The notes below the pieces were generated by a model. That model worked only from the letters and a program-made list of their open reading frames with translations, had not been told where the DNA came from and made no database searches. A DNA stretch of 64,000 bases from Octopus vulgaris (lineage: Eukaryota), in the NCBI GenBank assembly GCA_951406725.2, contig OX597821.1, forward strand, positions 69,378,001 through 69,442,000. The letters are read 5' to 3'. Each line of letters starts with the position of its first letter. The first letter of the stretch is position 1. Made by a program: the position numbers and the translations under genes. Shown one piece after another: positions 6,606 to 51,600 of the stretch.

Positions 6606-6951
6606 GCCTTTAGTCGAGCAAATCGACCCCTGGACTTATTCTTTGTAAGCCCAGTACTTATTCTATCGGTCTATTTTGCCGAACCGCTAAGTGACGGGGA
6701 CGTAAACACACCAGCATCGGTTGTCAAGCAATGCTAGGGGAACAAACACAGACACACAAACACACACACACATATATATACATATATACGACAGGCTTCT
6801 TTCAGTTTCCGTCTACCAAATCCACTCACAAGGCATTGGTCGGCCCGGGGCTATAGCAGAAGACACTTGCCCAAGATGCCACGCAGTGGGACTGAACCCG
6901 GAACCATGTGGTTGGTTAGCAAGCTACTTACCACACAGCCACTCCTGCGCC
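6606..6951 (-). mobile_element. tRNA-derived SINE family 2 (CORE-like block)
   Basis: Minus strand GGCGCAGGAGTGGCTGTGTGGTAAG...GGTTCAGTCCC...CTTGGGCAAGTGTCTT; homologous copies at about 15250-15560(-), 22155-22512(+), 23585-23940(-), 25460-25857(-), 28826-28982(-). Confidence 0.85.
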
Positions 6952-8306
6952 TCCTGTTTGGTGATAACTAATCATTCCTCTGTTTTCCTTTAGCTGGGCG
7001 AACAAGGTGCTTTCTTCTGTTTGGTGGAAATAATGAAAGGGAACATGTGGTGAAAAAAAATTAAAAGGATTGTTGACAGATAACATTTTTAGCAAGGCCC
7101 TCATCAACTTTTCAAGCTCCACTTTGAATAGGAGGCACTGCTATTCAGCAAATTTGCTGAGAAGTAGCTGAGAGTAACTAGTATGGCTTGAGAGAATGGG
7201 GCTACTTTTAGCATGTGCCTCTAAGCTATACAATACTACCAAGAAGGAAAACTTGCTTCCGGTAATCAAAGTAATTTTGCATCTATGAGGTTCCTTGATT
7301 AGTGCTTGGTGGTTGTTCCCCACCCTATTTTGGAACATCACATTGCATATCTTATATATGCTTTTGTTTTCCCTCCATGTTCTTTTTTTTTTTTTCCTTA
7401 ACCATTTTAATGTAACCCTCTTTCTGCTTTTGTATTGTGTCCTTGTAGTGTCTCCTCATTCATTGCTCTTGTAGCAAATAAAAGAAATTATTACTACTAT
7501 TAGTATTATGGCATACTTGGTCAACTGCCAGTTTTAATCTTGCCAGATTAAATTACCAGATTAAATTTACCATTAACCCCCACTGGGGTTGGTGGTGTCA
7601 TTATCTGGCCACACTACTCGCATGGATTCACATGACTCTCTGTCCAATTCTATTATGAATTTGGATTAGAAGCTTGAGTCACAATGAATCTTTCATTAGC
7701 TGATTACACACCCATGGATGCCACCCCTATGGGTGCGTTACAGTTTCTCTCTTGATAATGTCTGGTGATTCTGACCATTGATCTTCTAAGATTCTTCCAC
7801 TCAGCATCAATGTAGAAGCACCATTAGATCAGTTTGAGCTCTTCCACTGCCTCTTCACCACAATCTGCAGTACCGCAGTCCTGTGACTTTGCTGTATCCC
7901 TGGGTGTCTGAAAGGGTGCTATGCCTTGCCAAAGGACAGCCTCCATTACTATGCAGAGCACAGTCATCGCTCTATGAAGCATTTTCAAAATACATACCAA
8001 AATGACAAAAACTCACTTGGTTTCGAGTTTCTATGTGAATATGGTCTGTGAAAGCACGGCCCTCAATCCTTTCCACAGTCCGTATTCATACTGAAAATCA
8101 AGATGGAGTGAGCTTTTATCTCTGGTAATATAAGTATCAGTAATACACTGAAATTCAAGTCAAATAATTATATCCTTCTCTATAAATTTGTATCTTTGCT
8201 TAAAAATTTGAAACTTTGTGGCAGCGCATGTTATTATCAAATAAATTTTTTAAATCATCATCATCATCATTATTATTTATTATTGTTGTTGTTGTTGTTG
8301 TTTCAG

Positions 8307-10558
8307 GTGCTACCCCTCCAGCTGGTCGACGTGTTCTTCCACCCCTTGATGACTGTGACAAACGGCAGATGGAGATACTACAAAGGAAGTCATCAAGGAA
8401 AAAGAGCCCTGCACCAGTTCCTCCTCAGCGAACAACTTCATTTCGCGGTCCACCTGTGGATACTGCGTCAGAAATGGAGTTTGAGCTGAAGAACAAAATC
8501 AAACAGCAAAAGGCCAAAATTGAGGCCTCAACCCTTCACGAAGACTCAACTGAGCCTCAGGTCACCTTAGAACTGAGCCATCCAGATAATTATATTGGCA
8601 ACAATAGGTTTACCAAAACTAAACATTTGTCATTGAAGGGTAGCTCACCGAAATCCTTCCGACGCCATGACAATGATAAGTACCAGGGAAGCAAGGATGC
8701 CGACGATAACTTTCCTCGCCAAATGACGGAAAGTTTCAAAGGTTCCCATATCGATAAATCAAAATACATAATCTCAGATTTAGGAAATAAAAACCCCAGA
8801 CCACCACCTGGACATCTAAACCATGTGATTCCAGCAGAAATCCGACCCGAGCGTCCCAAGATTGACAAAGAGACGAGCACTAGCGAAGAAAGCATGGAAG
8901 CTGCAGCGGGACATGGTGGTGTTTACCCAAAGGTTGCCCTTTCTCTACCCCATAGGTCGTCCAGTTTTAAGAAGGGCAAGCCACTGACAGATAATCAAGA
9001 CTCTGAAGAAACTGTGGATCAAGAAAATTTTGTCAATGTCGGCAAATTAGATGCGGATAATGTGAAGACAATTGGCCGTTACGGGACTATTCCAAAGGGG
9101 GTGAGGATTGGAGCATATTTTAGGTCAATGGAAGATGAATCAAACCATACTGACCAACGTGAATCTAGCATTGATGATGTTGATTCTGGTACTGATACGG
9201 CCAGTGTGACTTCCTGTCCCCCATTACCACCGACTGCTGACACACCCGGAGATAGTGGTAAAGATGAAGAAAGCAACAATATTGGTATTAAACAGGAGCA
9301 TAATTTAAAGCCTTCTGCAGTTGTTAAATCACAGTCTTCTCAAATGCTTGTTGATAACCCAAAATCTTCATTTACAGGATTACTTCAGCGTCAAAAATCT
9401 GACCTAACCCATGGTAAAGTACAAGGAAGCAAACCCGACTATTCTCCTTCAAAACCTGACAATGGAATGCTTTCAAGTATTTCTCCTGGAGGATCAAAAT
9501 CTGATGATATATCAGAATTAAGCAAGTCAAGAATAAGCCCTCGATTTTCTCATGTGTTTGAAGATAATAAGAAAGAAGAGTTAAAAGAAAACAAAAAGTT
9601 CCAGCATAAACCTTTAAAGTCTCCTGATGAAGGTACATCTGAACTACGCAGCTTCCATAAAGTAGGCCAACCATTTCCCTCAAGGCCCCCCGGTTTGGCC
9701 CACGTTAATGACTCTAGTCCTACGAGTACTGAATCAACATTAGTGAGCAGTCCTGACTCTGTTGTGGAGAGATCCAAAAATGATATCCGTTCACCTCCTC
9801 CCAGACCACCCATCCGTGCACGAGTGTCGTTAGCTGATACTGATGATGGCAGTAGGCTATCAAAAGAAGTCAACGACAACAATGTACCACCTGCTGTCTT
9901 GTCCAAAATGGCCTCCAAAGTGAAGCTACCGTCTCTGCCCCCCAGCAGTGAGGCAGCATCCCTGAAACCCACCGGGCGAGATATAGACAGATCCAAATCA
10001 GATCAGTCCACTGATCGGTTTAGCTCTAATTCTGACTTTACTGCCGGGCACTTGACACCTGGCATTGCTCACAAACCTCCACCAGGTAACCAGAGAGATG
10101 AGCCTCCACCTAAAACTCTGTTTTCTAACTTCCGATCAGCCGCTCTGAGTCACCGCCACATTGATAACGATACGTCCGACAGCAAAAATTCACAAAACAA
10201 TCAATCTGTTGATGATAACTCCAAATCTGAAACACCTGTCACGAAGGATTCAATCATAGAGGCATCGAGCCGACTCGGAGGTCGCATTGATTCCTTGGCA
10301 ACAAGTAGCTCAAAGAGCTCGGGTGAGTTCATGGACTTATCGAAACAGGTGCAAACATATCACGAAATGTGTTCCCAGTTCATTGATTCCTTACCACCTC
10401 ACAGCAAGTTCCAGGGACGAGAATTGTTGAATCGGCTGCATCTGGAGTTACAAAAGTTGAAGACGTTGTCAGGAAGCTGTTTGACCAGCAGCAGCTCCAG
10501 CTTGTTGAATGAAATTCAGTCGACAAATAAAGAAATCCTGCAAGTCATTCAGCGATGA
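8307..10558 (+). CDS. Abl: Abl kinase, large terminal coding exon (PxxP/NLS region, low-complexity linker, F-actin-binding domain)
   Basis: tttcag acceptor, in frame with previous exon. RKKSPAPVPPQRTTSFR resembles ABL KKTAPTPPKRSSSFR; RYGTIPKGVRIGAY resembles the invertebrate Abl motif; C-terminal FIDSLPPHSKFQGRELLNRL...EILQVIQR matches the Abl F-actin-binding bundle ending VQR. TGA at 10556-10558. Confidence 0.93.
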
Positions 10559-12257
10559 GCAGCAAACTAGAAAACAGAGAATTTGGGTTATGGTTACAAG
10601 ACAGAAGAACAGACAGCAGATGGATGGACTCGCTGAAAAATTGCTTTTTTTTCCTATTCTCACCCCATCAACATATACATCTGTGAATGAACAAACACAC
10701 ACAAATACATACATACATATATATATATATATTTACATATGTACACGCGCTTTCACACTCATGCACATACACACAATCGTACATTCACCTACAAATGCGT
10801 ACTTTGTCATATTTTATCTTTTCGCTCACTTTCTCTCACTGTCTCTCTTTTTCCCTTTCACTTCTTCTTTCTCTATCTTTCTTCTCCCCCCCCTCACTTC
10901 AAGGCAGCCCCTTTCAGCCTGATCTGTAATCTTCATTTGCTGCGTTAAGTATTTTCATTTCTGTTGTGCACAACAGATCATTAGCATATGACATTTTGCA
11001 TGGACAGTTGGTTGCAGCTGTCCTGCCCAAGTCAAACACAGACGTTGATCTGCTGGTTCTGTTGAATATATTCCACACCCACTCACTTCTCATTCTCTCT
11101 TTCTTTTCTCTCGCTCTCTTTCTTCACATATATATATATATACATACATACATACATACATATATATATATATGAAGGACTGGAGTCTTGTTTTCCTGCT
11201 GTTCCTGGCGTTGTTGTTCAGCTGCACACAGCAGTCTTACAGAAGTTTGTGCTAACATTCACAGGATGTTTGCATTGTCTGCAAGGAACAGGGATCAAGA
11301 GTTCCTTCTAGCCGAACATTATAAATTGCAAAACTTTCCTCGTTTGTTGCTATGCAACTCGCGAAATCTATGTTTGACCAATGGTGAGCAGCTTGTGGAC
11401 GACTGAACTACCTTTGACTTTTGACCTAGCTGTGCATTTACCAATGAGCGATCCCTCTCTTTCTCCCTTCTCTTTCTTTGTTGCTGTCTCTTTCTCTCTG
11501 CCTGTCTGTCACTCTTCCCTCCTCTCTCTCTCAACTTTCTGATGTAAATTCTAAGAAGTACTTAACTCCTCCCTTTCAATTCTAAATATCTTTCCCTCTT
11601 TTTTCCTTCCTTCCTTCCTTCCTTCCTATGGGGGTTTCATTCCTCTGCACCAATGTTGACTTGACTAAGCTTTTTCGCTGTGTTACAAAGGTTGCCCTAT
11701 CTGTTGGTTTTGCATGTATGTAAGTGCATTTATGTGCATGTGTGTGTGTGTGTGTATGTGGATGTGCATGTGCGTAAATGACATGCAACCAAAGTATAGG
11801 ATTCTGCAGTTAACAATCAGGAAGCTGAGTATTTCTGCATTAATGTTACACCGTGCAACTATCAATAATTAAATATAATTTATAATATCTGGAAAAAGAA
11901 ACGAAAAAAAAATAGAATGTGAAAAAAAAAAATATAAAATTGGCAGAAAGCACCACCATCAAAAATAATAATAATCTTAACATGAAAAAATATCCAACAA
12001 AAAAAAAATAACAAAAACTTCATTAAATGAATTCAGATAAAAGAAGGAAAGCTAAAACAAAACAGCATTTAAAAAAATTTTTTTTTTTTTTTTGAAACCT
12101 GGAAAAAAAGATGTTCCATTTGAAGAGAACAAAGAACCCTGTTGATACATATTGCAACTAAATGTTCTCTTCTTTCCCACCTTCCTCACAATGGCAGGTG
12201 TTTCATGCACACATGCTTATATACACGCACACACATACATATAGCCATATGTATATA

Positions 12258-12305
<48 letters not shown>

Positions 12306-12314
12306 TATATTTAC

Positions 12315-12362
<48 letters not shown>

Positions 12363-13460
12363 ATATGTATATATTGTGTGTATATTTATATATATTTGTG
12401 TGCATATTTATATATATATTTATGGATGTATATATTTATATATATTTATGGATGTATATATTTATATATATTTATGGATGTATATGTTTATATATATTTA
12501 TATATATGTATGTTATATATGTGTGTATATATATATATATATACACATACATATATGTGTATATATATTTATGAGTATATGTATTATATACTTATGTGTA
12601 TATATATATATACCTGAGTGCATATGTATATTATATATTATATAATACACATTAGTGTATATATTTATATATATGCACACACATATGTATATAAATGTAT
12701 CTATACATATGCATACATATATATTTATGTGTGTGTGTTTGTGTCTATATATACATATGTGTGTATATATGTATGTATCTCTATGCGACGATAGGAAGAA
12801 TGAAGCTTCTTTAAGATGAACCGAACCTGAACAATGAAAAGCCCCCTCTCCCTGCGCCCAAGGCTCCTCCGTCTCCACCTCCTCCTTTTCACTTACCCAC
12901 TTGGCTGAAGTAATGTGCAACATACAGACAGGACAACCCTGGTGGTGACCCTTTCTGACACTGCTGGTTGTTTATAAAGATGTTTTAAGTGTCCACACTT
13001 CACCAATTTCCATCTGACTGATAAATCTCAGATGTTATAATAAAGAAATAAAATAAAATAAAACAAAATAAAAAGCAAAAAAAAAAATTTAGAAATCAAA
13101 TGCAAAAGACATTAAAGAAAAATAAACAAACATTAATGATAATACTAATATTAATGAAAATGATGATAATGATGATGATAAAATAAATTAATAAAATAAA
13201 AATTCTAAAAAAAAAGAAAACAATTACTAAAATTCTATTTAAAAAAAAACTACAAAAACAAAACAAAAGACATTTTTTCTTCCTGGGAATGAAATAGAAG
13301 ATTGGGTGAAATTAAATAGAATTTTCAAAGAAAACAAAAGGGAATTGAACAGAAAAATAAAAAAAAATTATTTAAAAAAATAAAGAAATCCTTAAAATTC
13401 ACTATTGTTATATCTTTTTTATCTTTCAATCTTCATTTGTTGGTTTTTTTTGTGAATATG
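10559..13460 (+). other. Probable long 3' UTR of Abl with microsatellites and clustered AATAAA signals
   Basis: Few interspersed repeats after the stop codon; several AATAAA from about 13039 to 13380 followed by U/GU-rich sequence near 13440-13490. True end is not determinable. Confidence 0.4.
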
Positions 13461-13519
13461 TATATTTTTGTGCATGTGTGTATGTTATGTATCCTCTGCT
13501 CACCAAAGTCTTGTTTTGT

Positions 13520-14200
13520 GTCTTAACACCTACCCCGCTTCTCACAACTGTCCCACCCTGTGTTGTCTGTCCTAACACCTGCCCATCTGACAACTGTCCC
13601 ACCTTGTATTGTTTGTCCTAGCAATTGCCCCTCTTCTCACAACTGTCCCACTATGTATTATTTGCCCTAACCCTTGCCCCTCTTCTCACAACTATCCTAC
13701 CTTGTATTGTTTGTCCTAACCCTTGCGCATCTTCTCACAACTGTTCCACCCTGTATTGTTTTCCTAACCCTTGCTCTTCTCAAAACTGTCTCACCTTATC
13801 CCAACTTGTATTGTTTGTCCTAACCCTTGCTCCTCTTCTCACAACTATCCTACCTTGTATTGTTTGGTCCTAACCCTTTCTCCTCTTCTCACAACTGTCC
13901 CACCTTGTATTGTTTGTCCTAACTCTTGCTCATCTTCTCACAACTATCCCACCTTGTATTGCTTGACCTAACTCTTGCTCCTCTTCTCACAACTGTCCCA
14001 CTTTGTATTGTTTGTCCTAACCCTTGCTCTTCTCACAACTGTCTCACCCTGTATTGTTTGTCCTAACCCTTGCCCCTCTTCTCAGAACTTCACAACTGTC
14101 CCACCATGTATTGTTTGTCCTAACCATTTCTCCTCTTCTCACAACTGTCTCACCCTATATTGTTTGTCCTAATTCCTGCACTTCTACTCACAACTGTCTT
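13520..14200. repeat. Minisatellite, ~41-42-bp unit, roughly 16 degenerate copies
   Basis: Repeated CCTTGTATTGTTTGTCCTAACCCTTGCTCCTCTTCTCACAACTGTCCCA-like unit. Confidence 0.9.
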
Positions 14201-14770
14201 GACTTATGTTTGCTTAGTCACCTGTCCTCTACATACAGCCATTCTATTCGTGAACTAAGGGGAACCTACTTATCTTAATCACTAGACCTGCTATAAATAG
14301 CTACCAGATCTCCCTCAACTTCCACCCAGTCACCTTAAAAATAAAGGCAGCACTGGATAATGAAATGCTGGATACATTATACAAGAAACAGAAAAAGGGT
14401 GTGATGAGCATATTTAGAAAGCCACGCATGTTACGACATTTTTTAAATTCCCAACTGTGATAATATCTTAGCCTTTATATATAGTGAAGGTAATAGAAGA
14501 CTCTTGAGTGTACCTTTCCTGGTATATTATAACACTGTTATAATAGACATCCGACGGTGTATTATTTATATCAGTATTATAGTGAACTTCTTCCTGATGC
14601 ATTATAATACTATCCTCCTCCCTTTTACCTTATGTAACTGTCATAGTGGACTTTATGAGTGGTTAAGTGCAAGTGGAGTGTCTAGTCGATAAAATACTTG
14701 CTCCAATGATATGAACACTTACAGGTTAACAAAGCCTTTGTATTTCTACTGATGACTTAGTGGTTCTTAA

Positions 14771-14992
14771 CCCTTTGCATTTCGATTTAGTCTTGACAGT
14801 CTATGGTGTGTACTGGTATTAAGCTGTTCAGTAACTGCATAATTTTACATACAAGGAACTTTACAGTGTATTTACAGATTGTTCTCAATGTGATATATTT
14901 GTAAACACGGTGCCACACAGAGCGAGACATCGCACTTCTCACACACACACAATGTTTCGATGCAGCCAGTACCACTTCCTGTCTGCAAGGGG
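14771..14992. mobile_element. piggyBac-type MITE (222 bp)
   Basis: TTAA|CCCTTTGCA ... TGCAAGGGG|TTAA. Confidence 0.65.
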
Positions 14993-17037
14993 TTAATCTA
15001 GGTTGTAGCACTCCTTTATGGATACTGTGAGTTTACAAGGAAGTGCTGCTATGTGTCTAGAAGAGTTGTGACTTTTTGGAAAATTTAAACCAAGAACAAC
15101 ACTTACGTTTTAAATATATTTTCCAAAAGCACCTTTGTCAGGATTAGTATATGAACCAGACATTGTGTTATCAGCTTGCAGAGTTATCACTGATGATGAT
15201 GCACCTAGGTCTGATACATTTTCGTTGTATAAGGCTTTGCCTTCTTTAGTACTTAAAGTCTGGTATTTATTATATTAGTCTCTTTTGTCAAAATACTAGT
15301 TATGGGATGTAAACAAACCAACACCAGTTGTCAAGCTGTTAGAAAGACGAACACAAAGACATACACACACACACGCACACAGACATATGCATATGTACAC
15401 ATATATGACAGGCAGCCATACAACTTCCATCTACCAAATTTACTCACAAAGCATCAATCAGTTTGGGGCTATTGCAGAAAACATTTATCTAAGGTGCTGT
15501 GCAGTGGGACTGAACCCAAAACCACGTGCTTGCAAAGTAAGTGTCTTAACCACAAAACTATGCTTGATGTTTAAAATATCTTAATATGATTAGGTTCCTT
15601 TTTTAGCTTGACCACAAAGTGGGGATGAAAAGATAGATGGTCATCATGTAAAAGGTTATTTCTTGGCTCCCTTCGTGTAGCCAGTTCTGGGTGTAAAGAA
15701 ATAAACCACAGTACATGGATGGTGCTTTATTCATCAACCCACAAAGAAATGAAAGGTAAAATTGGTCTTGGTGCAATTTGAACTCAGAAGGTCGTAACAA
15801 ATACTACATCTATCTATCTATCTATCTATCTATGTAATGTGTGTGTGTTTGTGCATGGTGCAGTTTCCTTGCCTTGACTTTGTGTGAGAGTTGCAAACAA
15901 GTGTCACCATCATGTAAGCAATGTCCTTCATTTCCAGTCTTATGTGAAAACATGTCTGGTCATGAGGAAATAATACCTTACTTGGAACACAAGAGATAAT
16001 TCATTACAAGGGCATTCAGCTGTAGAAAACCTGCTTCAACAAATTGTGTCTGGCCTATGTAAGCATTGAAAAGTGAACATTAAAATGATGATTCTGTCTA
16101 AATCTCAAATGATTTGTGTACAGATTATTATTATGTAAGCCTTTTTCAAATAGATATATGACATGTAGGTAATTAATTGAAAAACTAAGTACAAATATTT
16201 CTGTCTACCATTTGGCAGGAATCTTTAATAAGCCGCCCAAAATCTTCCTACAACTTCTACACTACTATACTATTTTTCATGTCATTCTCCTTTGTTAAAA
16301 TTACCTAATTTGAATTGTAGTATAAAAGTGATCAAATTTCTTCATTGTTCTTTTGCTCACTCATTTGACACAATGTACAAGCTACATACACTTACTCATA
16401 CAATACAGATAGAATCTGACATAAAAAAAAACCTCATTGAATGAAAAATTTCCATATAGAAACTTTTTAATTCTGTTGCTCTGCCCTCAAGATGCATGTC
16501 TTCTCTGCGTCTAAGCATGCCACACACTAACCTGAAATTTCTAATCCCTTGTACTATTGCTGGATAGTTGCTGGCCCCTCTGTTAGCTTCATCCATCCTT
16601 TTGACAAGTATTGTTCTAGTCCTGAGTTTCCAGCAACCCACCCCACCAGGTTAACTTAAGTAGGGGTGCCAGTTTAGTCATTAGCAACTTGGTTATGCAT
16701 CATACCAGACAAAAAGTTGTCAGTATCTTTTGTGAGTGACCTGATAATGTCTTACCATTCTGGGTTCAAATCCCAGTGGGGTCGACTTTGACTTTCTGCC
16801 TTTTAGAATCAATGTAATAATAACTAGCAATGACAAACTGTGATCGGTTCAAATAATCTTACAACCATTTCCTACAGATACATGTGACCATTGACCAAAA
16901 TTAAATAGCATCATTATTACAACTGTTATTAAAATAGAGACCAGATCCAATATGTGAGGAAGATATGTTGTTATGCTTACGACATTTCACCAAAGCAGCT
17001 TTTATGGAATTATTTAATCAGTTGCAATCAATAGTTA

Positions 17038-17490
17038 AAGGCAGCAAGTGAACAAAATTGTTAGCAGGTCAGACAAAATGCTTAGTGATATTTCTTCTAG
17101 CTCTTTGCATTCTGAGTTCCAATTCCACTGAGGTTAACTTGGCCCTTCATCCCTTTGTGGGGGGTGTGTATCAATAAAACAAAGTACCAGTCATATCACA
17201 AGGTCAGTGTAGTTGATTTTCCCCCTCTCCACCTTAAAATTGTCAGCCTTGACCTCTGCAACGAACCAGTGTCCCATCATCATCGTCATCATTGTTTAAT
17301 GTCCACCTTCCATGTTGGCATGGGTTGGACGGTTTGACTGAGGACTGGCAAGACAGGAGGCTGCACCAGGCTTCAATCTGATCTGGAGAGGTTTCTACAG
17401 CTGGATACCCTTTCTAACGCCAACCACTCCAAGAATATAGTTGGTGCTTTTTACATGCTACTGGCATGAGAACCAGTAAGGTGGTACTGG
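17038..17490. mobile_element. Degenerate SINE family 1 (+, ~17038-17250) and (GAT)n-tailed repeat (-, ~17277-17490)
   Basis: Similarity to copies at 3012 and 425. Confidence 0.65.
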
Positions 17491-19599
17491 CATCCCTGTT
17501 CAGGAGAAATGTAATCTCAGGTACTTATATGCCCTGGAACTCAGGCCTCGTATGAGGCCTAGAGCTTGCAACGAGGCAGGGAGAATCAGTAGTTAAAACT
17601 CCTTCAAAGCGCATCATGCATGTGTGTGGGACAAAGATAAAAAGTGGCTAAAGTACTTTTGATCGCTTGCGATTGATGTGAAGTGGACAACAACTAATAT
17701 ACAATATTTGAAACGAGCAATGAGCTAAGGCTGTGTTGGCTCATATTAATACAATTCCAGGTGCGCTAAAACTCCTATAATCTCTCTGATCCTACCTCAC
17801 TGAAATACGATTTTGGAAAAGATTCAACATGGAAGCCTCAACGTGGTCGTTTGGTCTACATGAAATGGCAACTCAGCATTCCTCAACGAACAAATGAAAT
17901 AATATAGTGATAGATATATTATGGCTGAAAAAAAAAAAGATTGATGGTCCTTGCTAGATCATTTTTTGATCATAGGGCTTTTGGTTAAGCAATTTTCAAA
18001 TTTTGATGCAAGGCCAGAAATTTTAGAAGGATGGCGTAAATAGCTTACATCGCCCTAGTACTTGACTAATGGTTATTTTCTTGACTTTAAAAGGATGAAA
18101 GGTAAAGCTTAGCTTCGTCGGGATTCGAACTCAGAACATAAGAAACCGGAGGAAATGCTGCAAAGTACTTCGTTCGCTGGCGATTCTGTCAAATTCACCA
18201 GCGCACAAAGTTATGAACCAAGGGAAGTAACTGTACGTACGAAGAGAAATAACTCGAACAAGTTTTTGTCAAAGATGTTTTGCAATGAAAACGAAATAAT
18301 TTGTATTTTTTTTAAATGGAGCCGATTTATTTGTTCGCAGATTATTACTGGCATTAAAATCACAAAACGATTTTGAGGATGAAAGCGATATAACAATGAC
18401 ACACAGAATCTGTTTTTTTCCAAAATACCCTAGTGCATATCCGATAATTATCAACGTAAACAACAAGGCCATGCATTAAGATCGGTCTCAGTATTTGACA
18501 CGTACTTCATTTTATACCCCTCAGATGGATGAAACGCAAAACAGAACTAGGCGAAATTCAAACTCAGAGCATAAACGAGACTCAAACGCTGAGTAATAAA
18601 GAAAACATAAGGTTGTTGTTTTTTAAATCTCACACATACACATGCAAACTCTTTAAAAGTAGATCCCATTAATAAGGCTAATTTTTTTAAAAAGTAGCTC
18701 AAAGATATAGCACCAGCAAATAGAGAATATAACTAATATAACGTAGTGTCAATTAGGGATTAGGTAAAATATCTGGAACCAGAGAGCTCTAATGACAATT
18801 TTCAGCAGTCACATCACTACACCCGATGTCGTAATTCGCTAGAATACTATCCATAGGGTCAAGAAAATCTGACCAATCACGACATGGCATGGGAATAGGT
18901 TCCAGCGACGATTTAATTTTTTTCAGGTTGAGTAGGCGTAGCTCTGGCCCTGGTAAAATTATAATTTCTTGGTTCCAATGAGTTAGGTATAACAGCAGAA
19001 AGAAATACAAGAAAACGAGTTGCAACTGACTTCCCCACTTTATTCAACCACTAACTGAATCGGTACAGAAAACTTTGGTACATACTGAATGATACTGTCT
19101 GAAGAAAATATACATATGGTTACCCATGCAGTTGGAACTTGGTAATATGAGCTTGACTAAACGGAACAGCAGCACGTCAAGGCTATCTACCAAATATCTC
19201 TCTTCTCTCTACCAAAATAGGAACTTAATTGTGCTTCCCATCTCACTGAAGGATAGTGGGAAAGATTCCTCTTTTTAAAGCTGATTAGGGACTCCAGTGA
19301 ACAAACATAATTTTCCTGTGCTAGGCTGGTCTGTCACGTGATTGGATGATAGCCCATGTAAAGTCAGAAAGACTTGATTGCAACCACATGTAGAAAACAC
19401 ACATGTGAGCTAATTTCTGGGTATTTAAAGCTAGACAGCTGAATGATAAATATACTTCTGTTACACATCTTTTGGCACACTTCCTTCTGAGCCTATCGAT
19501 CAGCATATATTTGGCACACTTTTTCTAGTTGACAAGGAGCAAACTAATTCCAAACACACATCCCAGACACACATTCATATACATGTACACGCATACAAC

Positions 19600-20478
19600 A
19601 TAGCTTTGAAGTGTTTTGTATTGGTAGAATTCACAGGTAATACCAAGATTTACTTGACAGAGATCACAACATTAATACTTCTAGCTCAACAAGCTGAATT
19701 CTAATCTGGCAGACCCACCATAAATCAACTTTTGAATCTCATTCAGCATACTGAGATGGGTTTCAGAAAGGACTAATAACAAAAGCCACCTTTGTTGATT
19801 TATCTGCCATGCAAGACACTGTGAATCACCACCTCCTTCAACAAAAGAGCTTGAAGTTGACAAAAGACCTGGTGCTTATGACCTTCATTGGAACCTCCCT
19901 GTAGATAGGTGACTTTTTGTTGTTTTGAACAACAAGCAAAATTACCAGCGACAACAAGGTAGTATACTAGGCTCTGTACTATATAACATCTATACTAATG
20001 ACCAGCCAATGAACCAGAAAACTGAGTGGTTTATTTATGCTGGCCACCTTTGTAGAAACAGTAGTAGAAGCAAACCTCAGGTGAACCCTAGATGATAACT
20101 TCTTTATTATGAATGCAACAGCCTATATGCCAACCCTGTGACTCAAGTCTGCTCATTTCATATTAAGAATCTTGAAGCCATTCATTCCTCTTAATGTCAA
20201 TGGTCTGGAAACACCCCTGCAGCACTATATCTCTCCTGTCTACTTTGGAGTAACCTCGAACTGCATTCTCTCTCTCCTTGTTGAAAACATGAAATTAAAA
20301 GTTGGTTCCCAAAGCAACATTCAGCAGAAACTAGTCATCTCCAAATGGGGAGCCACTGCACACACATTAGGGTCTCCTGATCTGGCCTCATGCTATTCCT
20401 CTGTGGAATATGCATGTCCTGTCTGGGAGAAATCAATCCATGCCAAGGAACTTGGCCTAGCATTGAGCAATATCTGCC
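19600..20478 (+). mobile_element. Decayed non-LTR retrotransposon RT fragment (Ingi/Vingi-like)
   Basis: Broken-frame motifs QGSILGSVLYNIYTNDQP...FIYA and KWGATAHTL...CYSSVEYACPVWEKSIH; interrupted by a SINE head at 20480. Confidence 0.6.
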
Positions 20479-20479
20479 A

Positions 20480-20604
20480 CTGTGGAGGCGCAATGGCCCA
20501 GTGGTTAGGGCAGCAGACTCACGGTTGTAAGAATACAGTTTCGATTCCCAGACCAGGCATTGTGAGTGTTTATTGAGCAAAAACACCTAAGCTCCACGAG
20601 GCTC
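20480..20604 (+). mobile_element. 5' part of tRNA-derived SINE family 3
   Basis: Same head as the full copy at 62964-63348 (GGAGGCGCAATGGCCCAGTGGTTAGGGCAGC...GTTTCGATTCCC). Confidence 0.8.
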
Positions 20605-20639
20605 AGTACAATTTATTTGGGAAAGAATTCATTTTTGAT

Positions 20640-20715
20640 GCTCTGATGAAACTATAAGGTATTAAGATGCTCAACTATGAGTCCACTGTACGCTGTAGCT
20701 GAAACAGCTGTAAGC
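20640..20715 (+). ncRNA. Type I hammerhead ribozyme motif (minimal stem III)
   Basis: GCT-CTGATGA-[AACTATA...TGTAGCT]-GAAA-C(AGCT)G-TA/AGC; predicted GUA cleavage after 20712; stem I only 3 bp. Confidence 0.6.
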
Positions 20716-20807
20716 TAATAAGATTCATAAGATAGTTATTTATTCTTTTGTCATCTCTCTTCCTTAAATATATATATATAAGGAAGAGAGATGACAAATA
20801 TATATGT

Positions 20808-21142
20808 GAAGGTGCATGGCTCAGTGGTTAAAGCGTTGAGCTTACGATTGTGAGGTTGTGAGCTCGAATCCCGGACCGGGCTGCATGTTGTGTTCTTGAG
20901 CAAGACACTTATTTCATGCTGCTCCAGTTCACTCAGCTGTAGAAATGAGTTGCGATGTCACAGGTGCCAAGCTGTATCGGCCTTTGCCTTTCCCTTGGAT
21001 AATACTGGTGGCATGGAGAAGGGAGGCCGGCATGCATGGGCGGCTGCTGGTCTTCCATAAACAACCTTGCGTGGACTTGTTCCTAGGAGGGTAACTTTCA
21101 AGGTGCAATCCCATGGTCTGTGCTGTGACCGAAGGGGGTCTC
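20808..21142 (+). mobile_element. tRNA-derived SINE family 4 (CORE-like)
   Basis: TGGCTCAGTGGTTAAAGCG A box, GCTCGAATCCC B box, TTCTTGAGCAAGACACTT core-like block; degenerate relative near 29735-29860. Confidence 0.75.
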
Positions 21143-21199
21143 AGAATATATATATACATATATAAAGTATGTGTATGTGTGTGTGGATATTTGGAAATA

Positions 21200-21836
21200 T
21201 GATGTGCTTGAGAAGACCCGGCAAACTAAGTGAGACCATAACCTGTGGCCTATGCCAGTGGTGTAACCAGCCCACTTAGGCATACCTTTCTTTCATTGGA
21301 CACTAAACTCTGCTTGCGAAGACCTGTTGAAGCAAGTGAAATCGAAATCAAATTCGGTGACAGCACTGCATGACTGGCATCCACGCTAGTGGAGTGCTAA
21401 GAGCACCTTTCGAGCATGATCGTTGCCAGTGCTGTTGACTGGCCCCCGTGCTGGTGGTATGCAAAAAGCACCATTTGAGCATGATCGTTACCGGTGTCGC
21501 CTTAGTGGCACTTGTGCTGGTGGTACATGGTAAACAACATTCGAACGAGGGCGTTGCCAGTGCCGCTGGACTGGCTCCTGTGCAGGTGACACGTAAAAAC
21601 ACCATTTGAGTGTGGCTGTTGCCAGTACCACCTGACTGGCCCTCATGCCGGTTGCATGTAAAAACACCCACTGCACTCTCGGAGTTGTTGGCATTAGGAT
21701 GGGCATCCAGCTGTAGAAACTCTGCCAGATCAGATTGGAGCCTGGTGCAGCCATCTGGTTAGCCTGTCCTCAGTCGAACCGTCCAACCCATGCCAGCATG
21801 GAAAGTGGACGTTAAACGATGATGATGATGATGATG
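21200..21836 (+). mobile_element. SINE-like repeat with internal tandem subrepeats and (GAT)n tail
   Basis: Internal repeats of GCTGGTGGCACGTAAAAAGCACCATTCGAGCGTG-like units; ends GGACGTTAAAC(GAT)n; second copy at 31065-31540. Confidence 0.75.
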
Positions 21837-33600: not shown

Positions 33601-33677
33601 AGGTATATATATATGTATATAGAGTATATGTATATTATATATATATGTCTGTATGTACGTGTATATATGTATATATG

Positions 33678-33728
<51 letters not shown>

Positions 33729-33732
<4 letters not shown>

Positions 33733-35130
33733 CCTTTGCATTTGATTTTTTGATGTCTTTACCCCCAAACTTTCGTGAGTTGAGTTGAGCAAACACTATA
33801 CGAGAGAGGTTTTCTTTAAGTATTAGAAATAATTTTAAAAAAGTTTTTTAGCTGCTATTTCTAATGAGTTCAGTATGCGGTAAAGTAATTTATTTTACTA
33901 AGCCCTTTTATATAATGTAATAATTTGAATTCGCCTTAAATGGTCCCTTTGCATACTGAACACTTGGTGAAATTGATTAATAATTAATTAATTTTACCCT
34001 CAATTGTTGAAATTATAATTAATCTCCCTCTAATTAATGCTTCGGATTTTACCGAAATAAGCATAGTGTTTGCTGATTTTAACCCACGCTGGTGGAAAGG
34101 GGAGAACAGAAATTCTTCGCTTGCATATTTGGGTTTGTTGGCACTGTTAGTTACGAGCAGATCTTCGAAAGCGATGAGAAGCCGAAAGGGTATGCTCTCA
34201 CTTTCAGTGTTTTCAAATCCAAACCAAGGAGTTTCTGAGCTGATGATAGAAGTGTCGTGTTGACTAATCTTGAAACGTACGTTCTCAAATAACCTTTGCA
34301 TTTGATTTTTTGATGTCTTTACCCCCAAACTTTCGTGAGTTGAGTTGAGCAAACACTATACGAGAGAGGTTTTCTTTAAGTATTAGAAATAGTTTTAAAA
34401 AAGTTTTTTAGCTGCTATTTCTAATGAGTTCAGTATGCGGTAAAGTAATTTATTTTACTAAGCCCTTTTATATAATGTAATAATTTGAATTCGCCTTAAA
34501 TGGTCCCTTTGCATACTGAACACTTGGTGAAATTGATTAATAATTAATTAATTTTACCCTCAATTGTTGAAATTATAATTAATCTCCCTCTAATTAATGC
34601 TTCGGATTTTACCGAAATAAGCATAGTGTTTGCTGATTTTAACCCACGCTGGTGGAAAGGGGAGAACAGAAATTCTTCGCTTGCATATTTGGGTTTGTTG
34701 GCACTGTTAGTTACGAGCAGATCTTCGAAAGCGATGAGAAGCCGAAAGGGTATGCTCTCACTTTCAGTGTTTTCAAATCCAAACCAAGGAGTTTCTGAGC
34801 TGATGATAGAAGTGTCGTGTTGACTAATCTTGAAACGTACGTTCTCAAATAACCTTTGCATTTGATTTTTTGATGTCTTTACCCCCCAAACTTTCGTGAG
34901 TTGAGTTGAGCAAACACTATACGAGAGAGGTTTTCTTTAAGTATTAGAAATAGTTTTAAAAAAATTTTTTAGCTGCTATTTCTAATGAGTTCAGTATGCG
35001 GTAAAGTAATTTATTTTACTAAGCCCTTTTATATAATGTAATAATTTGAATTCGCCTTAAATGGTCCCTTTGCATACTGAACACTTGGTGAAATTGATTA
35101 ATAATTAATTAATTTTACCCTCAATTGTTG

Positions 35131-35138
<8 letters not shown>
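33729..35138 (+). mobile_element. Tandem array of 560-bp units (2.5 copies), one hammerhead per complete unit; retrozyme-like
   Basis: Near-identical units starting 33731, 34291, 34851; (TA)n on both sides; hammerheads at 34236-34287 and 34796-34847. Confidence 0.85.
34236..34287 (+). ncRNA. Type I minimal hammerhead ribozyme (copy 1; copy 2 at 34796-34847)
   Basis: TGAG-CTGATGA-T[AGA..GTC GTGTT GAC..TCT]T-GAAA-C(GTAC)G-TT/CTCA: 4-bp stem I, palindromic stem-III loop, GUU site after 34283. Confidence 0.78.
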
Positions 35139-35176
<38 letters not shown>

Positions 35177-35179
35177 TAC

Positions 35180-35228
<49 letters not shown>

Positions 35229-35229
35229 G

Positions 35230-35281
<52 letters not shown>

Positions 35282-35565
35282 TATACATATATATATGCAT
35301 ATATTTATATCTTTGTGTGTATATATATATATATAGCTGTATGTGTGTGTATGATTGAGAAGTCATGACAACTTGATTGAGAAGACCCGGTATAAACTTG
35401 ATGATGGATTCAGCCGATAGCTGTACTCTTTCTGTATCCGACATCAGCTGTTCGACATAGGCTATCAGCCCCCTCTCAATTCCACACACTGGAATGAATG
35501 GCTGTGGGCATAAGGGGGGACGTGGGATGATGCCAAAATCGTGCCTTGACAGCTGTCTCGAACTG

Positions 35566-37300
35566 GTAATGGTTTTATCCCTGAATGTTAGATCCAGTAC
35601 GACCAACTCACCTTCTGAGTCCACAAAGATTGTACGTATCTGCAGAGCCAAGCTTTTTCGGAGCAAAACCACAACGCCTCCACCCCCCCGGTCTGTCTAG
35701 GAGACATGATTTTCTTATAGCCATTCAGGAGAGTCGAGAAGGCATGTAGCTTGTCAAACTCGGTCTCTGTAGCCACCATTACATCTATACTATGTAACCT
35801 GAGGTCGTTGGGGAAACAAGTTTGCTTCCACTTCGAGCTCAGATCACGCACATTCACACAACCTATGCTGAATGTAGCCATATCAAAAAAAGGTAAAAAA
35901 AAAGAAAAATTGGGCTTACCTGCCCTTTTCGTCTGTAGAGGGGAATTGATCTCAGTACTACTGGGATATACTCCCCTTCTCCCTTCCTCTCTTCCATGTT
36001 TGGCTCAACCGGCGGGTTAAATATTTTTGGGAGTGTCTTAAGCTCTGTAATATCTCTAGGCTGTCTTGTCTTTAATTCTATATAAAATTTATATGAAATA
36101 TTTCCAATCGTGTTGGTATTTTTCTCATTGTCCTGATAGAAAACTTTGGATTGGAGGTGGGGCCTAATCACCCCTTCCAAATAACGGTTGGTGTTTTTAT
36201 ACACCACCATAACTGTGTCTGGTTTATAATTTTTCCTCCAGGTTTTGCATCTTGAATTCCTTTTTCCCCCCTTTTTCATCTCTTTATTTTTGTCACTGGG
36301 TATCTCTGGGGACTGCTCCAACTTTGTTTAATCCTTTTTTACATGTTTTATTTTCGGAGTCGCCTCTTGTGACTTGGTTGGCGACTCCGTCTGTCTCTTC
36401 GTTCTTTTACGAGGCACCGTCTGAAAATCCATGTTTTCTCTATGCCCTTTACTGGCTCCTTTTTTTCATCCGCCTCTTTCGACTTTTTCTCGTTGGTGGT
36501 CGCCCTCTGAGTAATGGCCTCCTTCACCAGGACTGCCGCATCTTTTTCCTCTTTATGGGTCTTTTCCTCTTCGGTCTCCTCCTGGGGAGGCAAGCGCTTG
36601 GACCTCGGGTGCCGCTTCTTCCCGCACCTGAAGCATTGAGGCTTCTTCCCCTCCACATTCACTATTAACACTGTCTTCTCCCCAACATGGATCTTGTCCG
36701 GGAGACTTCCAAGGTTGTTGGAAGTGGCTTGCGCCAGTATTTCCAGAGTCTGCCCCTTCTGTGGGGCATATTTGGAAATCTGGATGAAGTTAATTTTATC
36801 CCCTCTTTGAAATAACAACGTGGCCACAACTCAAGCGACCTCTATTTCTGATGGATGTGCTTGATTCAAATCCGGGAAGTTCTGAGTCCCAGATACAATA
36901 GCAGAAGTGAGATTTGCTCGTTTTGCAAGATTGGAGTCAAATACTTACGAGCCTTCTCTGCCTACTCGAACCTTACCTCCACCGTTGCGTCCCTGGTGCC
37001 TTGGTCCAGATACATGATTTACTTCATCACCGGACCGAGGCATATTTCGATAGGTCCTTCTTCAAAGAATTCCAGTTTTTTTATTTACTATGTCATATGT
37101 TTTGTAGATTATGGTTTTCTCTTTTTTGTTGTTGTTGATAATTCTACTTGGGATGGGGGGGGGAGCAACTTTACTTCCTCTATCCCGTCTTCTGTTATCA
37201 TTCAAAGAATGACTGAATTTCTGCCTTTTCAAGCGAAATGATTTCCTGTTGCCCTCCCACAACGGAGGCAAATTTTTTTATACACTGGCGTTCTAAAGAA
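35566..37300 (-). mobile_element. 5' part of an L1/Tx1-like LINE (ORF1 with zinc knuckle, start of AP endonuclease), decayed
   Basis: VEGKKPQCFRCGKKRH (CCHC-like); IGCVNVRDL...IDVMVATET...GGV..LLRKSL...[11 protein letters not shown] (APE N-terminal motifs) across frameshifts. Confidence 0.7.
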
Positions 37301-37643: not shown

Positions 37644-37723
37644 TTCAGAACTCTGCAAAAATCATGTTCAAATTCTTCATAGTTAAAAACGTTGCCTATT
37701 TTTTTACTTAACCTGGTATATAT

Positions 37724-37764
<41 letters not shown>

Positions 37765-37842
37765 CATATATACCAGGTTAAGTAAAAAGTAAGCAACGTT
37801 TTTAACCATGAAGAATTTGTACCGGCTTTTTGCAGAGTTCTG

Positions 37843-37844
<2 letters not shown>
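37644..37844. repeat. Imperfect ~83-bp inverted repeat centred on (TA)n
   Basis: Arms 37644-37726 and 37763-37844 (TTCAGAACTCTGCAAAAA...ACTTAACCTGGTATATATGGT and its reverse complement). Confidence 0.88.
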
Positions 37845-37913
<69 letters not shown>

Positions 37914-38247: not shown

Positions 38248-39096
38248 AGACGGCGAGCTGGCAGAAACGTTAGCACGCCGGGCGAAATGCTTAGTGGTAT
38301 TTCGTCTGCCGTTACATTCTGAGTTCAAATTCCGCCGAGGTCGACTTTGCCTTTTATCCTTTCGGGGTCGATAAATTAAGTGCCAGTTACGCACTGGGGT
38401 CGATGTAATCGACTTAATCCGTTTCTCTGCCCTTGTTTGTCCCCTCTGTGTTTAGCCCCTAGTGGGTAGTAAAGGAAAAAGTATTTCGTCTGCCGTTACG
38501 TTCTGAGTTCAAATTCCGTCGAGGTCGACTTTGCCTTTCATCCTTTTGGGGTCAATAAATTAAGTACCAGTTACGCACTGGGGTCGATGTAATCGATTTA
38601 ATCCCTTTGTCTGACCTTGTTTGTCCCCTCTATGTTAAACCCCTTGTGAGCAATAAAGAAATAAGAAACGTTAGCACGCCAGGCAAAATGCTTAGCGGTA
38701 TTTCGTCTGTCTTTACGTTGTGAGTTCAAAATCCGCCGTGGTCGACTTTGCCTTTCATCTTGTCGGGGTCGAGAAATTAAGTATCAGTTGCATACTGAGG
38801 TCGATCTAATCGACTTTCCCCACCACCGCCAAAAAATTCAGGCCCTGTGCTTAGAGTAGAAAAGATTATTCTCTTTGCATTTTAAGGCAGCGAGCTGGCA
38901 GAAACGTTAGCATGCCGGGTGAAATGCTTAGCAGTATTTCGTCTGTCGACGTTCTGAGTTCGAATTCTGCCGAGGTCGACTTTGCCTTTCGTCCTTTCGA
39001 GGTCGATAAATTAAGTACCAGTTGCGTACTAGGGTCGATCTAATCGACTGGCCTCCTCCCTCAAAATTTCGGGCATTGTACCTAGAGTAGAAAAGA
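38248..39096 (+). mobile_element. Head-to-tail cluster of four SINE family 1 copies
   Basis: Copies at about 38248-38480, 38481-38660 (5'-truncated), 38665-38866 and 38884-39096; two different 3' tails. Confidence 0.85.
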
Positions 39097-40039: not shown

Positions 40040-41027
40040 AACAGTTCTAGATACTACGTTGGATACGATGGTTGTTCGTCTGGTATGTTGATTTTGTTCA
40101 TTCATTATAAATCTTGAATTATGCTTGCACTGATGAATAAAGAGTGCACGCCACTACACTGATTACGAAATCACAGGTGATCTGCAGCTGAATTCTGTTT
40201 TTAAATGACTTGCTTCAAGAGTTGCATTCGGTACGATATGTTTATTTATTTTAGTAGTTTTGTCTTTAAGAGTCCCTCCTAGAGTGTGGCATTTTTGTGT
40301 ATTAATGCCCTCTATATAATATTTAAAAAAAATTATTTAAGTGAAGAAATTGGTGGATTTTTTCTCTTATGAGGTTTTTCACGCTAACTACTTGATAAAT
40401 TCTTATGAAGATTTTATCCTATTTTTAAATTATAAATTTAACCGGAGTATATTCTACACTGAATTTTTATTCCGAATAAGCATGTTGTTGCCAACAGTTC
40501 TAGATACTACGTTGGATACGATAGTTGTTCGTCTGGTATGTTGATTTTGTTTATTCATTATAAATCTTGAATTATGCTTGCTCTGATGAGTAAAGAGTGC
40601 TCGCCACTGCACTGATTACGAAATCACAGGTGATCTGCAGCTGAATTCTGTTTTTAAATGACTTGCTTCGAGAATTGCATTCGGTACGATGTGTTTATTT
40701 ATTTTAGTAGTTTTGTCTTTAAGAGTCCCTCCTAGCGTGTGGCATTTTTGTGTAATAAAGCCCTCTATATAATATTTAAAAAAAAATATTTAAGTGAAGA
40801 AATTGGTGGATTTTTTCTCTTATGAGGTTTTTCACGCTAACTACTTGATAAATTCTTATGAAGATTTTATCCTATTTTTAAATTATAAATTTAACCGGAG
40901 TATATTCTATACTGAATTTTTATTCCGAATAAGCATGTTCTTGCCAACAGTTCTAGATACTACGTTGGATACGATAGTTGTTCGTCTGGTATGTTGATTT
41001 TTTTCATTCATTATAAATCTTGAATTA
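40040..41027 (+). mobile_element. Tandem array of 453-bp units (2.2 copies) with hammerhead ribozymes; retrozyme-like
   Basis: Units start 40040, 40493, 40946; followed by (GATA)n; hammerheads at 40123-40188 and 40576-40641. Confidence 0.85.
40576..40641 (+). ncRNA. Type I hammerhead ribozyme (copy 2; copy 1 at 40123-40188)
   Basis: GCTTGC(A/T)-CTGATGA-[GTAA..AGTGC..GCACT..TTAC]-GAAA-TCAC(AG)GTGA-TC/TGCAGC; AUC site after 40635 (40182 in copy 1). Confidence 0.8.
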
Positions 41028-50852: not shown

Positions 50853-51000
<148 letters not shown>

Positions 51001-51001
51001 A

Positions 51002-51480
51002 AGGGCTAAAAACCACTATGTGATCAGCCATATGCTTGAAGTAATGCTTGAAGTAGATCACCTGCGATCAAAATATGTTCTCTAATAGGCAGCATTAACT
51101 GCAGTAAATTATTTTGTTTCCGGAATTTTAGCGCGCCAGAACTCAGACATTTGAAATTAACACAATGTAATCGGTGAAACTAAACACGTGTCTGTTTTTA
51201 TACGGAAAATTAGTGGTTAGTTTTACAAATTATATTACCTGTGAAACGATCGTACTGACGAGCCCTACAGACGATGGATTGCGTAAGTGATTCGTTCGTT
51301 AATAGGCGAAACCTAGGTCTGCGATTAATTCTTGTTTTTTATATAATTTTCATCTGTCTTGCGCGCATATTGTTCTGGTGTCCGCTGAATTTTTTCTCTA
51401 GAGAACATTCTTTTCTTTGTAGTTTGATCGCAGGTGATCTACTTCTAGCATATGGCTGACCACAGTGGTTTTTTAGCCCT
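51002..51480 (+). mobile_element. 479-bp element with ~58-bp inverted termini, TTAA flanks and a central hammerhead ribozyme
   Basis: TTAA|AGGGCTAAAAACCACT...CCTGCGATCAAA (51002-51072, with a 12-bp duplication) versus TTTGATCGCAGG...AGTGGTTTTTTAGCCCT|TTAA (51423-51480). Confidence 0.85.
51248..51326 (+). ncRNA. Type I minimal hammerhead ribozyme, canonical core
   Basis: GATCGTA-CTGACGA-GCC...GGC-GAAA-C(CTAG)G-TC/TGCGATT: 7-bp stem I including G.U pairs, G10.1-C11.1, palindromic loop III, GUC site after 51319. Confidence 0.88.
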
Positions 51481-51600
51481 TTAAATATACATATGTATTA
51501 GAATTTTGTCTGATTCTTCAGATTTTTGTATGCTAGGCTACTGGTTTTAAATTGATATTAATTAAATTAATATTCAATTTACCTCCCTCGTTATTTAAAT

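What the first reader, a model, noticed from the sequence alone, without database searches (positions are those of the whole stretch)
33729..35138. 560-bp hammerhead array whose 5' end nearly coincides with the self-cleavage site
Seen: 2.5 almost identical units (only about three differences by eye) with (TA)n on both sides. The predicted cut is after 34283; the equivalent first downstream base in copy 1 would be 33724, and the array begins at about 33729. Inference: the inserted template was a ribozyme-processed RNA, either a partly cleaved multimer or a circle copied by rolling reverse transcription, and the insertion is recent. The hammerhead has an atypical U10.1-U11.1 position and a GUU site.
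Basis: partly seen in the sequence, partly recalled or inferred. Interest (0 to 1): 0.85.

Follow-up and report, generated by a model that had tools for sequence, protein, structure and literature searches.

The report
Retrozyme array copied from RNA circles
This 2.5-copy repeat is one recent insertion of a large family of non-coding jumping elements that carry a predicted self-cutting RNA motif and land in TA repeats; across about 100 copies the fixed ends lie at two internal sites and not at the cut, which likely means a Penelope-type reverse transcriptase copies a rejoined RNA circle round and round.

Summary
The array and its two type I hammerhead motifs are real. The family is large: 805 exact 3' junctions, roughly 2,000 insertions by extrapolation. 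In 97 consecutive insertions the 5' ends are scattered: 3 arm ends lie within 6 nt of the cut against 3.5 expected. The near-coincidence is therefore not the family rule, although a weak, about twofold genome-wide excess remains. What is fixed are two internal 3' ends, about 196 and 294 nt after the cut and joined to (TA)n; 60 of 64 inverted insertions carry one of each. This is the Penelope-like 'tail' signature, and autonomous Penelope-like elements in this genome show it too. About half of the arms read through the cut, and all 205 crossings are in register. The ribozyme core is nevertheless invariant in 72 of 72 insertions, and long insertions share their own variants in all units on both arms. 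Best reading: a non-LTR retrozyme whose ribozyme-released monomer is circularised and copied by rolling, target-primed reverse transcription. Cleavage, circles and the partner enzyme were not shown. It is a new member of a known kind, and it gives unusually direct genomic support for a step proposed but not demonstrated in the papers I read.

The parts
33604..33731 (.). Left (TA)n tract, likely the insertion target
   Evidence: TRF; 26 of 33 direct and 61 of 64 inverted family insertions have a TA-rich left flank
33729..34283 (+). Unit 1, 5'-truncated (unit positions 6-560; position 1 = first base after the predicted cut); 5' junction has ATA microhomology with (TA)n
34236..34287 (+). Type I hammerhead motif 1: stem I 34236-39/34284-87, CUGAUGA 34240-46, stem II opening with U.U, GAAA 34272-75, palindromic stem III, GUU; predicted cut after 34283
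   Evidence: motif scan; core invariant in 72 of 72 insertions; activity untested
34284..34843 (+). Unit 2, the complete 560-nt monomer that two cuts would release; non-coding, strongly structured (z -7.0)
34796..34847 (+). Type I hammerhead motif 2; predicted cut after 34843
34844..35138 (+). Unit 3, positions 1-294, ending at the fixed long 3' end
35030..35040 (+). Short fixed end site (unit ~186-196, TATATAA); not used as an end here but is the outer end of inverted arms and the end of solo copies elsewhere; inferred second RT start
35041..35138 (+). 98-nt 'tail' between the two fixed ends; part of the conserved 127-294 module (31 of 168 sites variable vs 93 of 206 in 300-512), inferred RT-recognition region
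35133..35138 (+). Long fixed end site (unit 289-294, ends TATA) joined to (TA)n; inferred RT start used for this insertion
   Evidence: 805 exact junctions, control 0
35135..35335 (.). Right (TA)n tract
   Evidence: TRF

Best explanation
The array is a recent insertion of a non-autonomous, hammerhead-bearing retroelement (a non-LTR retrozyme) that is likely copied from a ribozyme-made RNA circle by the reverse transcriptase of a Penelope-like element. Steps: (1, inferred) an array with two hammerheads is transcribed and the weak motifs, probably acting as dimers, release a 560-nt monomer; (2, inferred from other animals) a host ligase closes it; (3, inferred) a Penelope-like RT/GIY-YIG protein cuts a (TA)n tract and primes at one or both of two internal sites, ~196 and 294 nt after the cut, each of which has a TATA word matching the target (the fixed ends and their (TA)n junctions are shown); (4, read-through shown, circle inferred) RT runs past the sealed cut site for 0 to 12 laps and stops at a scattered position; (5, shown as structure) one primed strand gives a direct array such as this one, and two give a head-to-head inversion with one long and one short end. 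This copy started at 294, crossed the cut twice and stopped at position 6.
For: Fixed 3' ends: 805 exact long junctions, control 0. 60 of 64 inverted insertions have the other arm ending at 190-207 and 1 of 64 is long-long. Of 20 further short ends, 13 pair with a long end, 6 are solo, 1 is unclear and none is short-short. Autonomous elements in this genome show the same two-end, (TA)n, inversion pattern, and two internal RT starts bounding the tail were shown in vitro for an anole element (PMC11167929). Read-through: 45 of 97 long arms and 32 of 60 short arms pass the cut; all 205 crossings are in register, 4 of them with U17>A, still a valid NUH. Selection on catalysis: inherited variants at 0 of 11 core and 2 of 18 stem sites against 93 of 206 elsewhere, Fisher p=3e-5; N7 varies freely. 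Monomer bottleneck: the six longest young arrays (L173-L178, 7-13 units) each carry a different set of variants fixed in all units, on both arms where the site is covered; 31 variants are private to one insertion and fixed in it, 16 of them on both arms. The 583-nt sister family shows the same two ends and read-through.
Against: No RNA, cleavage or circle was observed. The family's hammerhead looks weak (U.U or A.A at 10.1/11.1, GUU, 2-bp stem III), and the best two-copy fold is a duplex that pairs A14 with U17 rather than the active form. In the anole element ribozyme mutants did not affect insertion in vitro and uncut RNA was the main substrate. Units within an insertion were closer to each other than to the nearest other insertion in only 32 of 60 cases (medians 0.33% vs 0.58%). 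Some arrays carry variants recurring every 2-4 units (L173-L176), which a single monomeric circle does not predict. Fifteen loci start at the cut against 6 and 12 in controls, and two of them (this one and L222) stop at the third encounter, which fits partly cut linear multimers. No autonomous element with DNA similarity to the unit was found in 92 loci from three searches. An earlier unchecked scan note (e1-7810660) reports similar arrays without any ribozyme.
Confidence: 0.62

Rival explanations
1. Same element and same Penelope-like machinery, but the template is a linear, uncut or partly cut multimer transcript of an existing array; this copy's 5' end is then a real ribozyme-cut end.
For: Uncut RNA is the main substrate of the anole element in vitro; weak-looking ribozyme; periodic variants within arrays; about twofold excess of 5' ends at the cut, with two 2.5-unit copies starting at position 6.
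Against: Only a few arm ends lie at the cut against 93 crossings in the unbiased set, so templates are almost never cut there, yet the core is under strong selection. Each long array has its own fixed fingerprint, which would need its own long homogeneous source array.
Confidence: 0.24
2. Short insertions (one unit plus an overlap) are made by Penelope-like RT, and the multi-unit arrays grow afterwards at the DNA level by slippage or unequal crossing-over, as suggested in the 2026 preprint.
For: Period 2-4 variants look like local duplications; no strand bias of RT-error type in singleton variants on the stricter test; the model is discussed in 10.64898/2026.07.22.740005.
Against: Arrays of 7-13 units at 97-99% identity with few singletons; both inverted arms are often multi-unit and share the fingerprint; the stop rate per kb stays in the same range before and after the first crossing (2.3-5.0 vs 2.4-3.5 per kb). 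It still needs a template longer than one unit.
Confidence: 0.11
3. The tandem units are an assembly or polishing artefact of a single-unit insertion between TA tracts.
For: Near-identical units; homopolymer-type differences; no long read of this locus was seen.
Against: Hundreds of independent loci share the structure with locus-specific fingerprints; contigs from unrelated public runs cross both the cut and position 294.
Confidence: 0.03

Closest known systems
Metazoan non-LTR retrozymes (Cervera and de la Pena 2020, PMC7229834; results and discussion parts 2-4 read; Li, Clavereau and Pollet 2026 preprint 10.64898/2026.07.22.740005, parts 1-3 read)
   Same: Non-coding, low-GC head-to-tail units with one type I hammerhead each; dimers to multimers; structured monomer; U.U at the base of helix II and a 2-bp helix III as in axolotl HHR_Amex2; Penelope-like elements present in the same genome.
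   Different: Unit of 560 nt (170-400 nt in the 2020 paper, within the 51-972 bp range of the preprint). Here the insertion ends are mapped: two fixed internal ends, (TA)n targeting, head-to-head inversions and read-through of the cut. In the parts I read, the circle-to-tandem-cDNA step is a hypothesis. Circles and cleavage were shown there and not here.
EN+ Penelope-like elements and their pLTR/tail structure (Frangieh et al. 2024, PMC11167929, main text read; Arkhipova et al. 2013, PMC3846280, passages; Craig et al. 2021, PMC8557442, passages)
   Same: 5' truncation, partial tandems, head-to-head inversions with palindromic junctions, an optional tail bounded by two RT start sites, microsatellite targets, hammerhead in the repeat.
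   Different: No ORF. Tail of 98 nt rather than 30-40 bp (autonomous families in this genome have tails of about 58 and 71 nt). Both start sites carry a TATA word matching the target, whereas the anole start sites were reported as non-homologous to the cut DNA.
Non-autonomous Chlamys elements such as MRC1 (Craig et al. 2021, passage read)
   Same: Non-autonomous Penelope-like elements with multicopy head-to-tail insertions in microsatellites.
   Different: Those generally resemble an autonomous family at the 3' end and mostly lack canonical hammerheads; here no autonomous homologue was found.

Membership tests
Metazoan non-LTR retrozyme | Tandem head-to-tail units each with a type I hammerhead motif | tested here: met
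   Rfam itself gives no hit; conservation and covariation support the motif
Metazoan non-LTR retrozyme | Non-coding, no LTR/PBS/PPT organisation, GC under 50% | tested here: met
   GC 0.34; longest sense Met-ORF 29 aa; a 105-aa antisense ORF is broken in older copies; PBS and PPT were not scanned for separately
Metazoan non-LTR retrozyme | Dispersed multicopy family with signs of retrotransposition | tested here: met
Metazoan non-LTR retrozyme | Self-cleavage of the transcript | not testable with these tools
   only indirect: core invariant
Metazoan non-LTR retrozyme | Expressed as linear and circular monomers | not testable with these tools
   only assembled contigs of runs of uncertain type were available
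Non-autonomous Penelope-like element | Two fixed 3' ends bounding a tail; inverted 5'-truncated arm; scattered 5' ends | tested here: met
Non-autonomous Penelope-like element | Microsatellite/AT-rich targeting like co-resident EN+ elements | tested here: met
   for the family; for autonomous elements
Non-autonomous Penelope-like element | Sequence similarity to the pLTR of an autonomous partner | tested here: inconclusive
   none in 92 loci of a few families; each search scored only 150 of 6,136-21,563 candidates
Autonomous Penelope-like element | ORF with RT and GIY-YIG endonuclease | tested here: not met
   no ORF in the unit
Plant LTR retrozyme | Type III hammerhead in paired LTRs with 4-bp target duplication | tested here: not met
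   type I topology, tandem arrays; duplications cannot be read inside (TA)n

The most novel reading that the evidence does not exclude
This genome records rolling-circle reverse transcription in vivo. A Penelope-like RT dimer cuts both strands of a (TA)n tract and primes two RTs, 98 nt apart, on one ribozyme-made RNA circle; each runs several laps by strand displacement. Dimeric or larger circles leave the period 2-4 variant patterns, and the slow U.U/GUU hammerhead is kept slow so that the circle survives as a template. This would give a concrete function to the hammerheads of Penelope-type elements.
Probability: 0.35. Interest if true: 0.8.

Novelty: new member of a known kind. Interest (0 to 1): 0.55.

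Why it matters
Retrozyme circles have been shown in coral, mussel and axolotl, but in the parts of PMC7229834 that I read their copying into tandem DNA and the identity of the helper are proposals, and Craig et al. 2021 call hammerhead function in these elements unclear. This family links the two at the level of insertion structure: it uses the Penelope two-start-site signature, reads through its own cut site, and still keeps the catalytic core under selection. With thousands of young copies, several sister families and active autonomous elements in one genome, the circle-template question can be tested directly. A natural rolling-circle, microsatellite-targeted RT would also be of technical interest.

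Tried and rejected
5' end at the cut as the family rule: rejected. Rfam: no hammerhead hit. Expression: no RNA holder listed; contigs of runs guessed to be RNA hold the unit but may be DNA. A contig in run X9 starts exactly at 34284, but neighbouring contigs overlap it by one word length, so it is a graph break and not an RNA end. A-to-I editing of templates or RT-error strand bias: a first test hinted at it (fixed A>G 7 vs T>C 3, p=0.20; singletons A>G 5 vs T>C 19, p=0.02), but it did not hold on retesting (T>C 16 vs A>G 6, p=0.13; inherited A>G 12 vs T>C 16); rejected. Antisense 105-aa ORF: broken in older copies; rejected. Compensation at 10.1/11.1: none, since the variant is A.A in 12 of 72 and the mismatch is kept. 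Simple snap-back as the source of inversions: disfavoured because long-long palindromes are 1 of 64, but not excluded for the 29 perfect palindromes. Autonomous partner: not found. Literature: searches listed no paper that, from its title, abstract start or the passages I read, maps retrozyme insertion ends or reports cephalopod retrozymes; PMC13282606 has 0 occurrences of 'ribozyme' or 'retrozyme' in its main text. I did not open any supplements (bioRxiv ones are closed), and repeat libraries were not available, so the family may already be catalogued under another name.

Full report
Observation. The array spans 33729-35138 between (TA)n tracts. With position 1 as the first base after the predicted cut (34284), it reads [6-560][1-560][1-294], with two substitutions and one C-run insertion among units. 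Two type I hammerhead motifs start at 34240 and 34800, with U.U at 10.1/11.1, a palindromic stem III and a GUU site. Rfam does not recognise them, and the isolated motif does not fold into the hammerhead as its best structure. The monomer as a whole is strongly structured (z -7.0, 0 of 100 shuffles as stable) and non-coding.

Family. A DNA search of the own genome (G000, 2.8 Gb) gave 1,672 candidates, of which 40 were scored, with arrays at 97-99% identity. An exact pattern for position 294 joined to (TA)n matched 805 times, control 0. A pattern for the second end matched 626 times on the + strand; its reverse count is inflated by overlaps. Extrapolating from the first 55 Mb of contig 1 gives roughly 2,000-2,500 insertions; this is my estimate. 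Contigs of public runs labelled with four further coded organisms also hold the unit. No call named the host; my guess of an octopus is recalled from the look of nearby repeats.

I fetched the first 100 of the 805 places in genome order and dropped three: L093 (same flanks as L092), L054 (5' end at an N gap) and L074 (pattern hit an internal unit). Of 97 insertions, 33 were scored direct and 64 inverted; the script simplified a few complex loci (L080, for example, has an inverted arm but was scored direct). 5' ends spread over the whole unit. Among 97 long and 60 short arms, 3 end within 6 nt of the cut (3.5 expected) and 10 within 20 nt (11.0 expected), against 93 crossings. Genome-wide, distinct loci with a TA-joined 5' end number 15 in the window at the cut, 6 at 541-549 and 12 at 126-134 (counted by me from overlapping rows). 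This is about twice what I would expect, but position 6 offers ATA microhomology. Of 11 of these 15 that I viewed besides the window, 10 are shorter than one unit and one (L222) has the same 2.5-unit form as this locus with a different fingerprint. So a cut 5' end is possible for this copy but explains at most a few percent of arms.

What is fixed. In 60 of 64 inversions the second arm ends at 190-207, at an internal TATATAA; one is long-long and three are other. Of 20 short ends lacking the exact long pattern (20 of 25 such places listed), 13 pair with a variant long end (two of these, L239 and L240, are duplicates), 6 are solo and 1 is unclear. In 29 of 60 inversions the two arms meet at the same unit position (permutation mean 6.9, maximum 17). 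Both fixed ends coincide with TATA words, of which the unit has three sites. This matches the Penelope-like pattern: inverted 5'-truncated arms with palindromic junctions and an optional tail (PMC3846280 and PMC8557442, passages), the tail lying between two internal RT start sites (PMC11167929, main text). The genome holds young autonomous elements of this kind: a 781-aa ORF with RT and GIY-YIG matches and (TA)n ends, a family with ends 37 and 108 nt after its own hammerhead site, and a family with two ends 58 nt apart. Pfam gave no family for the last two ORFs, so calling them Penelope-like rests on recalled motifs and on their end structure. None resembles the unit in DNA.

Circle or multimer. 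Forty-five of 97 long arms and 32 of 60 short arms pass the cut. In 120 loci all 205 crossings are in register; 4 carry U17>A, which is still a cleavable triplet. Yet the 11 core positions are invariant in 72 of 72 insertions while N7 varies (T 56, C 11, A 5). Across 148 insertions, inherited variants touch 0 of 11 core and 2 of 18 stem sites against 93 of 206 sites in 300-512 (p=3e-5). A ribozyme that must work but whose cut ends almost never appear in templates is most simply explained by re-ligation. Twenty young long arrays chosen show fingerprints fixed across all units and both arms, for example nine linked variants in L178; 31 variants are private and fixed, 16 on both arms, 8 in three or more units. 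Against this: within-insertion distance was below the distance to the nearest other insertion in only 32 of 60 cases; L173-L176 carry variants recurring every 2-4 units, which could be larger circles, later duplications or polishing errors; and the anole element does not need its ribozyme in vitro. A palindromic short stem III is described as allowing cleavage in multimers but not in monomeric circles (PMC4209133, passages), which fits, although the best two-copy fold here is not the active one.

Replication in a sister family. A 583-nt family (2,187 candidates, 40 scored) aligns with the unit over its length (348 of 629 columns). It has fixed ends near 196 and 299, the same stem III, compensatory changes in stem I, and a canonical G10.1-C11.1 pair with GUC. 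This supports the hammerhead reading and shows that the U.U/GUU form is one lineage's variant.

Comparison and verdict. It works like, and meets the testable criteria of, a metazoan non-LTR retrozyme, and it carries the insertion signature of Penelope-like elements. Circular RNAs and ligation by RtcB were shown for coral, mussel and axolotl families, and tandem cDNA synthesis on circles was proposed (PMC7229834, parts 2-4); a 2026 preprint links retrozymes to pLTRs by phylogeny. The element is therefore a new member of a known kind. What is added is end mapping, read-through and selection evidence that favour the circle as template (about 0.6) over uncut multimers (about 0.25). Cleavage, circles and the helper protein remain untested.

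Noticed in passing
window 40040-41027: Second hammerhead array (453-bp unit, 2.2 copies, motif at 40130 with GUC site) ending in a (TAGA)n tract. Its family has 2,968 candidates and recurring ends at about 196 and 311 of the query; this copy ends elsewhere and its unit is about 45 nt shorter than that of relatives.
   Followed up: partly
window 50998-51490: TA-flanked element with inverted ends and a type I hammerhead motif at 51255 (stem I 6 bp, GUC); probably a third family of the same kind.
   Followed up: no
window 37690-37846: Short inverted-repeat arms on both sides of a (TA)n run, followed by another (TA)n.
   Followed up: no
window 35400-35895, minus strand: Frameshifted start of a LINE endonuclease-like ORF beside the right TA tract; the L1/Tx1 label is recalled, not from a call.
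   Followed up: no
L173, L174, L175, L176: Variants recurring every 2-4 units inside long arrays, two of them linked in alternate units of L175; unexplained.
   Followed up: partly
unit positions ~180 and ~275; L119, L255, L291, window 50775 and 51475: A CCCT word lies a few bases upstream of both fixed ends in this and several other hammerhead families, a possible RT recognition signal; seen by eye, not tested against chance.
   Followed up: no
L089, L243-L272: Very young, abundant Penelope-like family (21,563 candidates, 727-aa frames) whose hammerhead has an A.A mismatch at 10.1/11.1, like the minority variant of the 560-nt family.
   Followed up: partly
L164, L168: The 781-aa Penelope-like ORF is preceded by an overlapping 479-aa frame with only a weak, sub-threshold Pfam match.
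   Followed up: no
L028: A 560-nt family insertion is joined directly to the short end of a 453-nt family element, either nested insertion or template switch.
   Followed up: no
window 38297-39080: Cluster of 184-bp related SINE-like copies; the SINE label is recalled.
   Followed up: no
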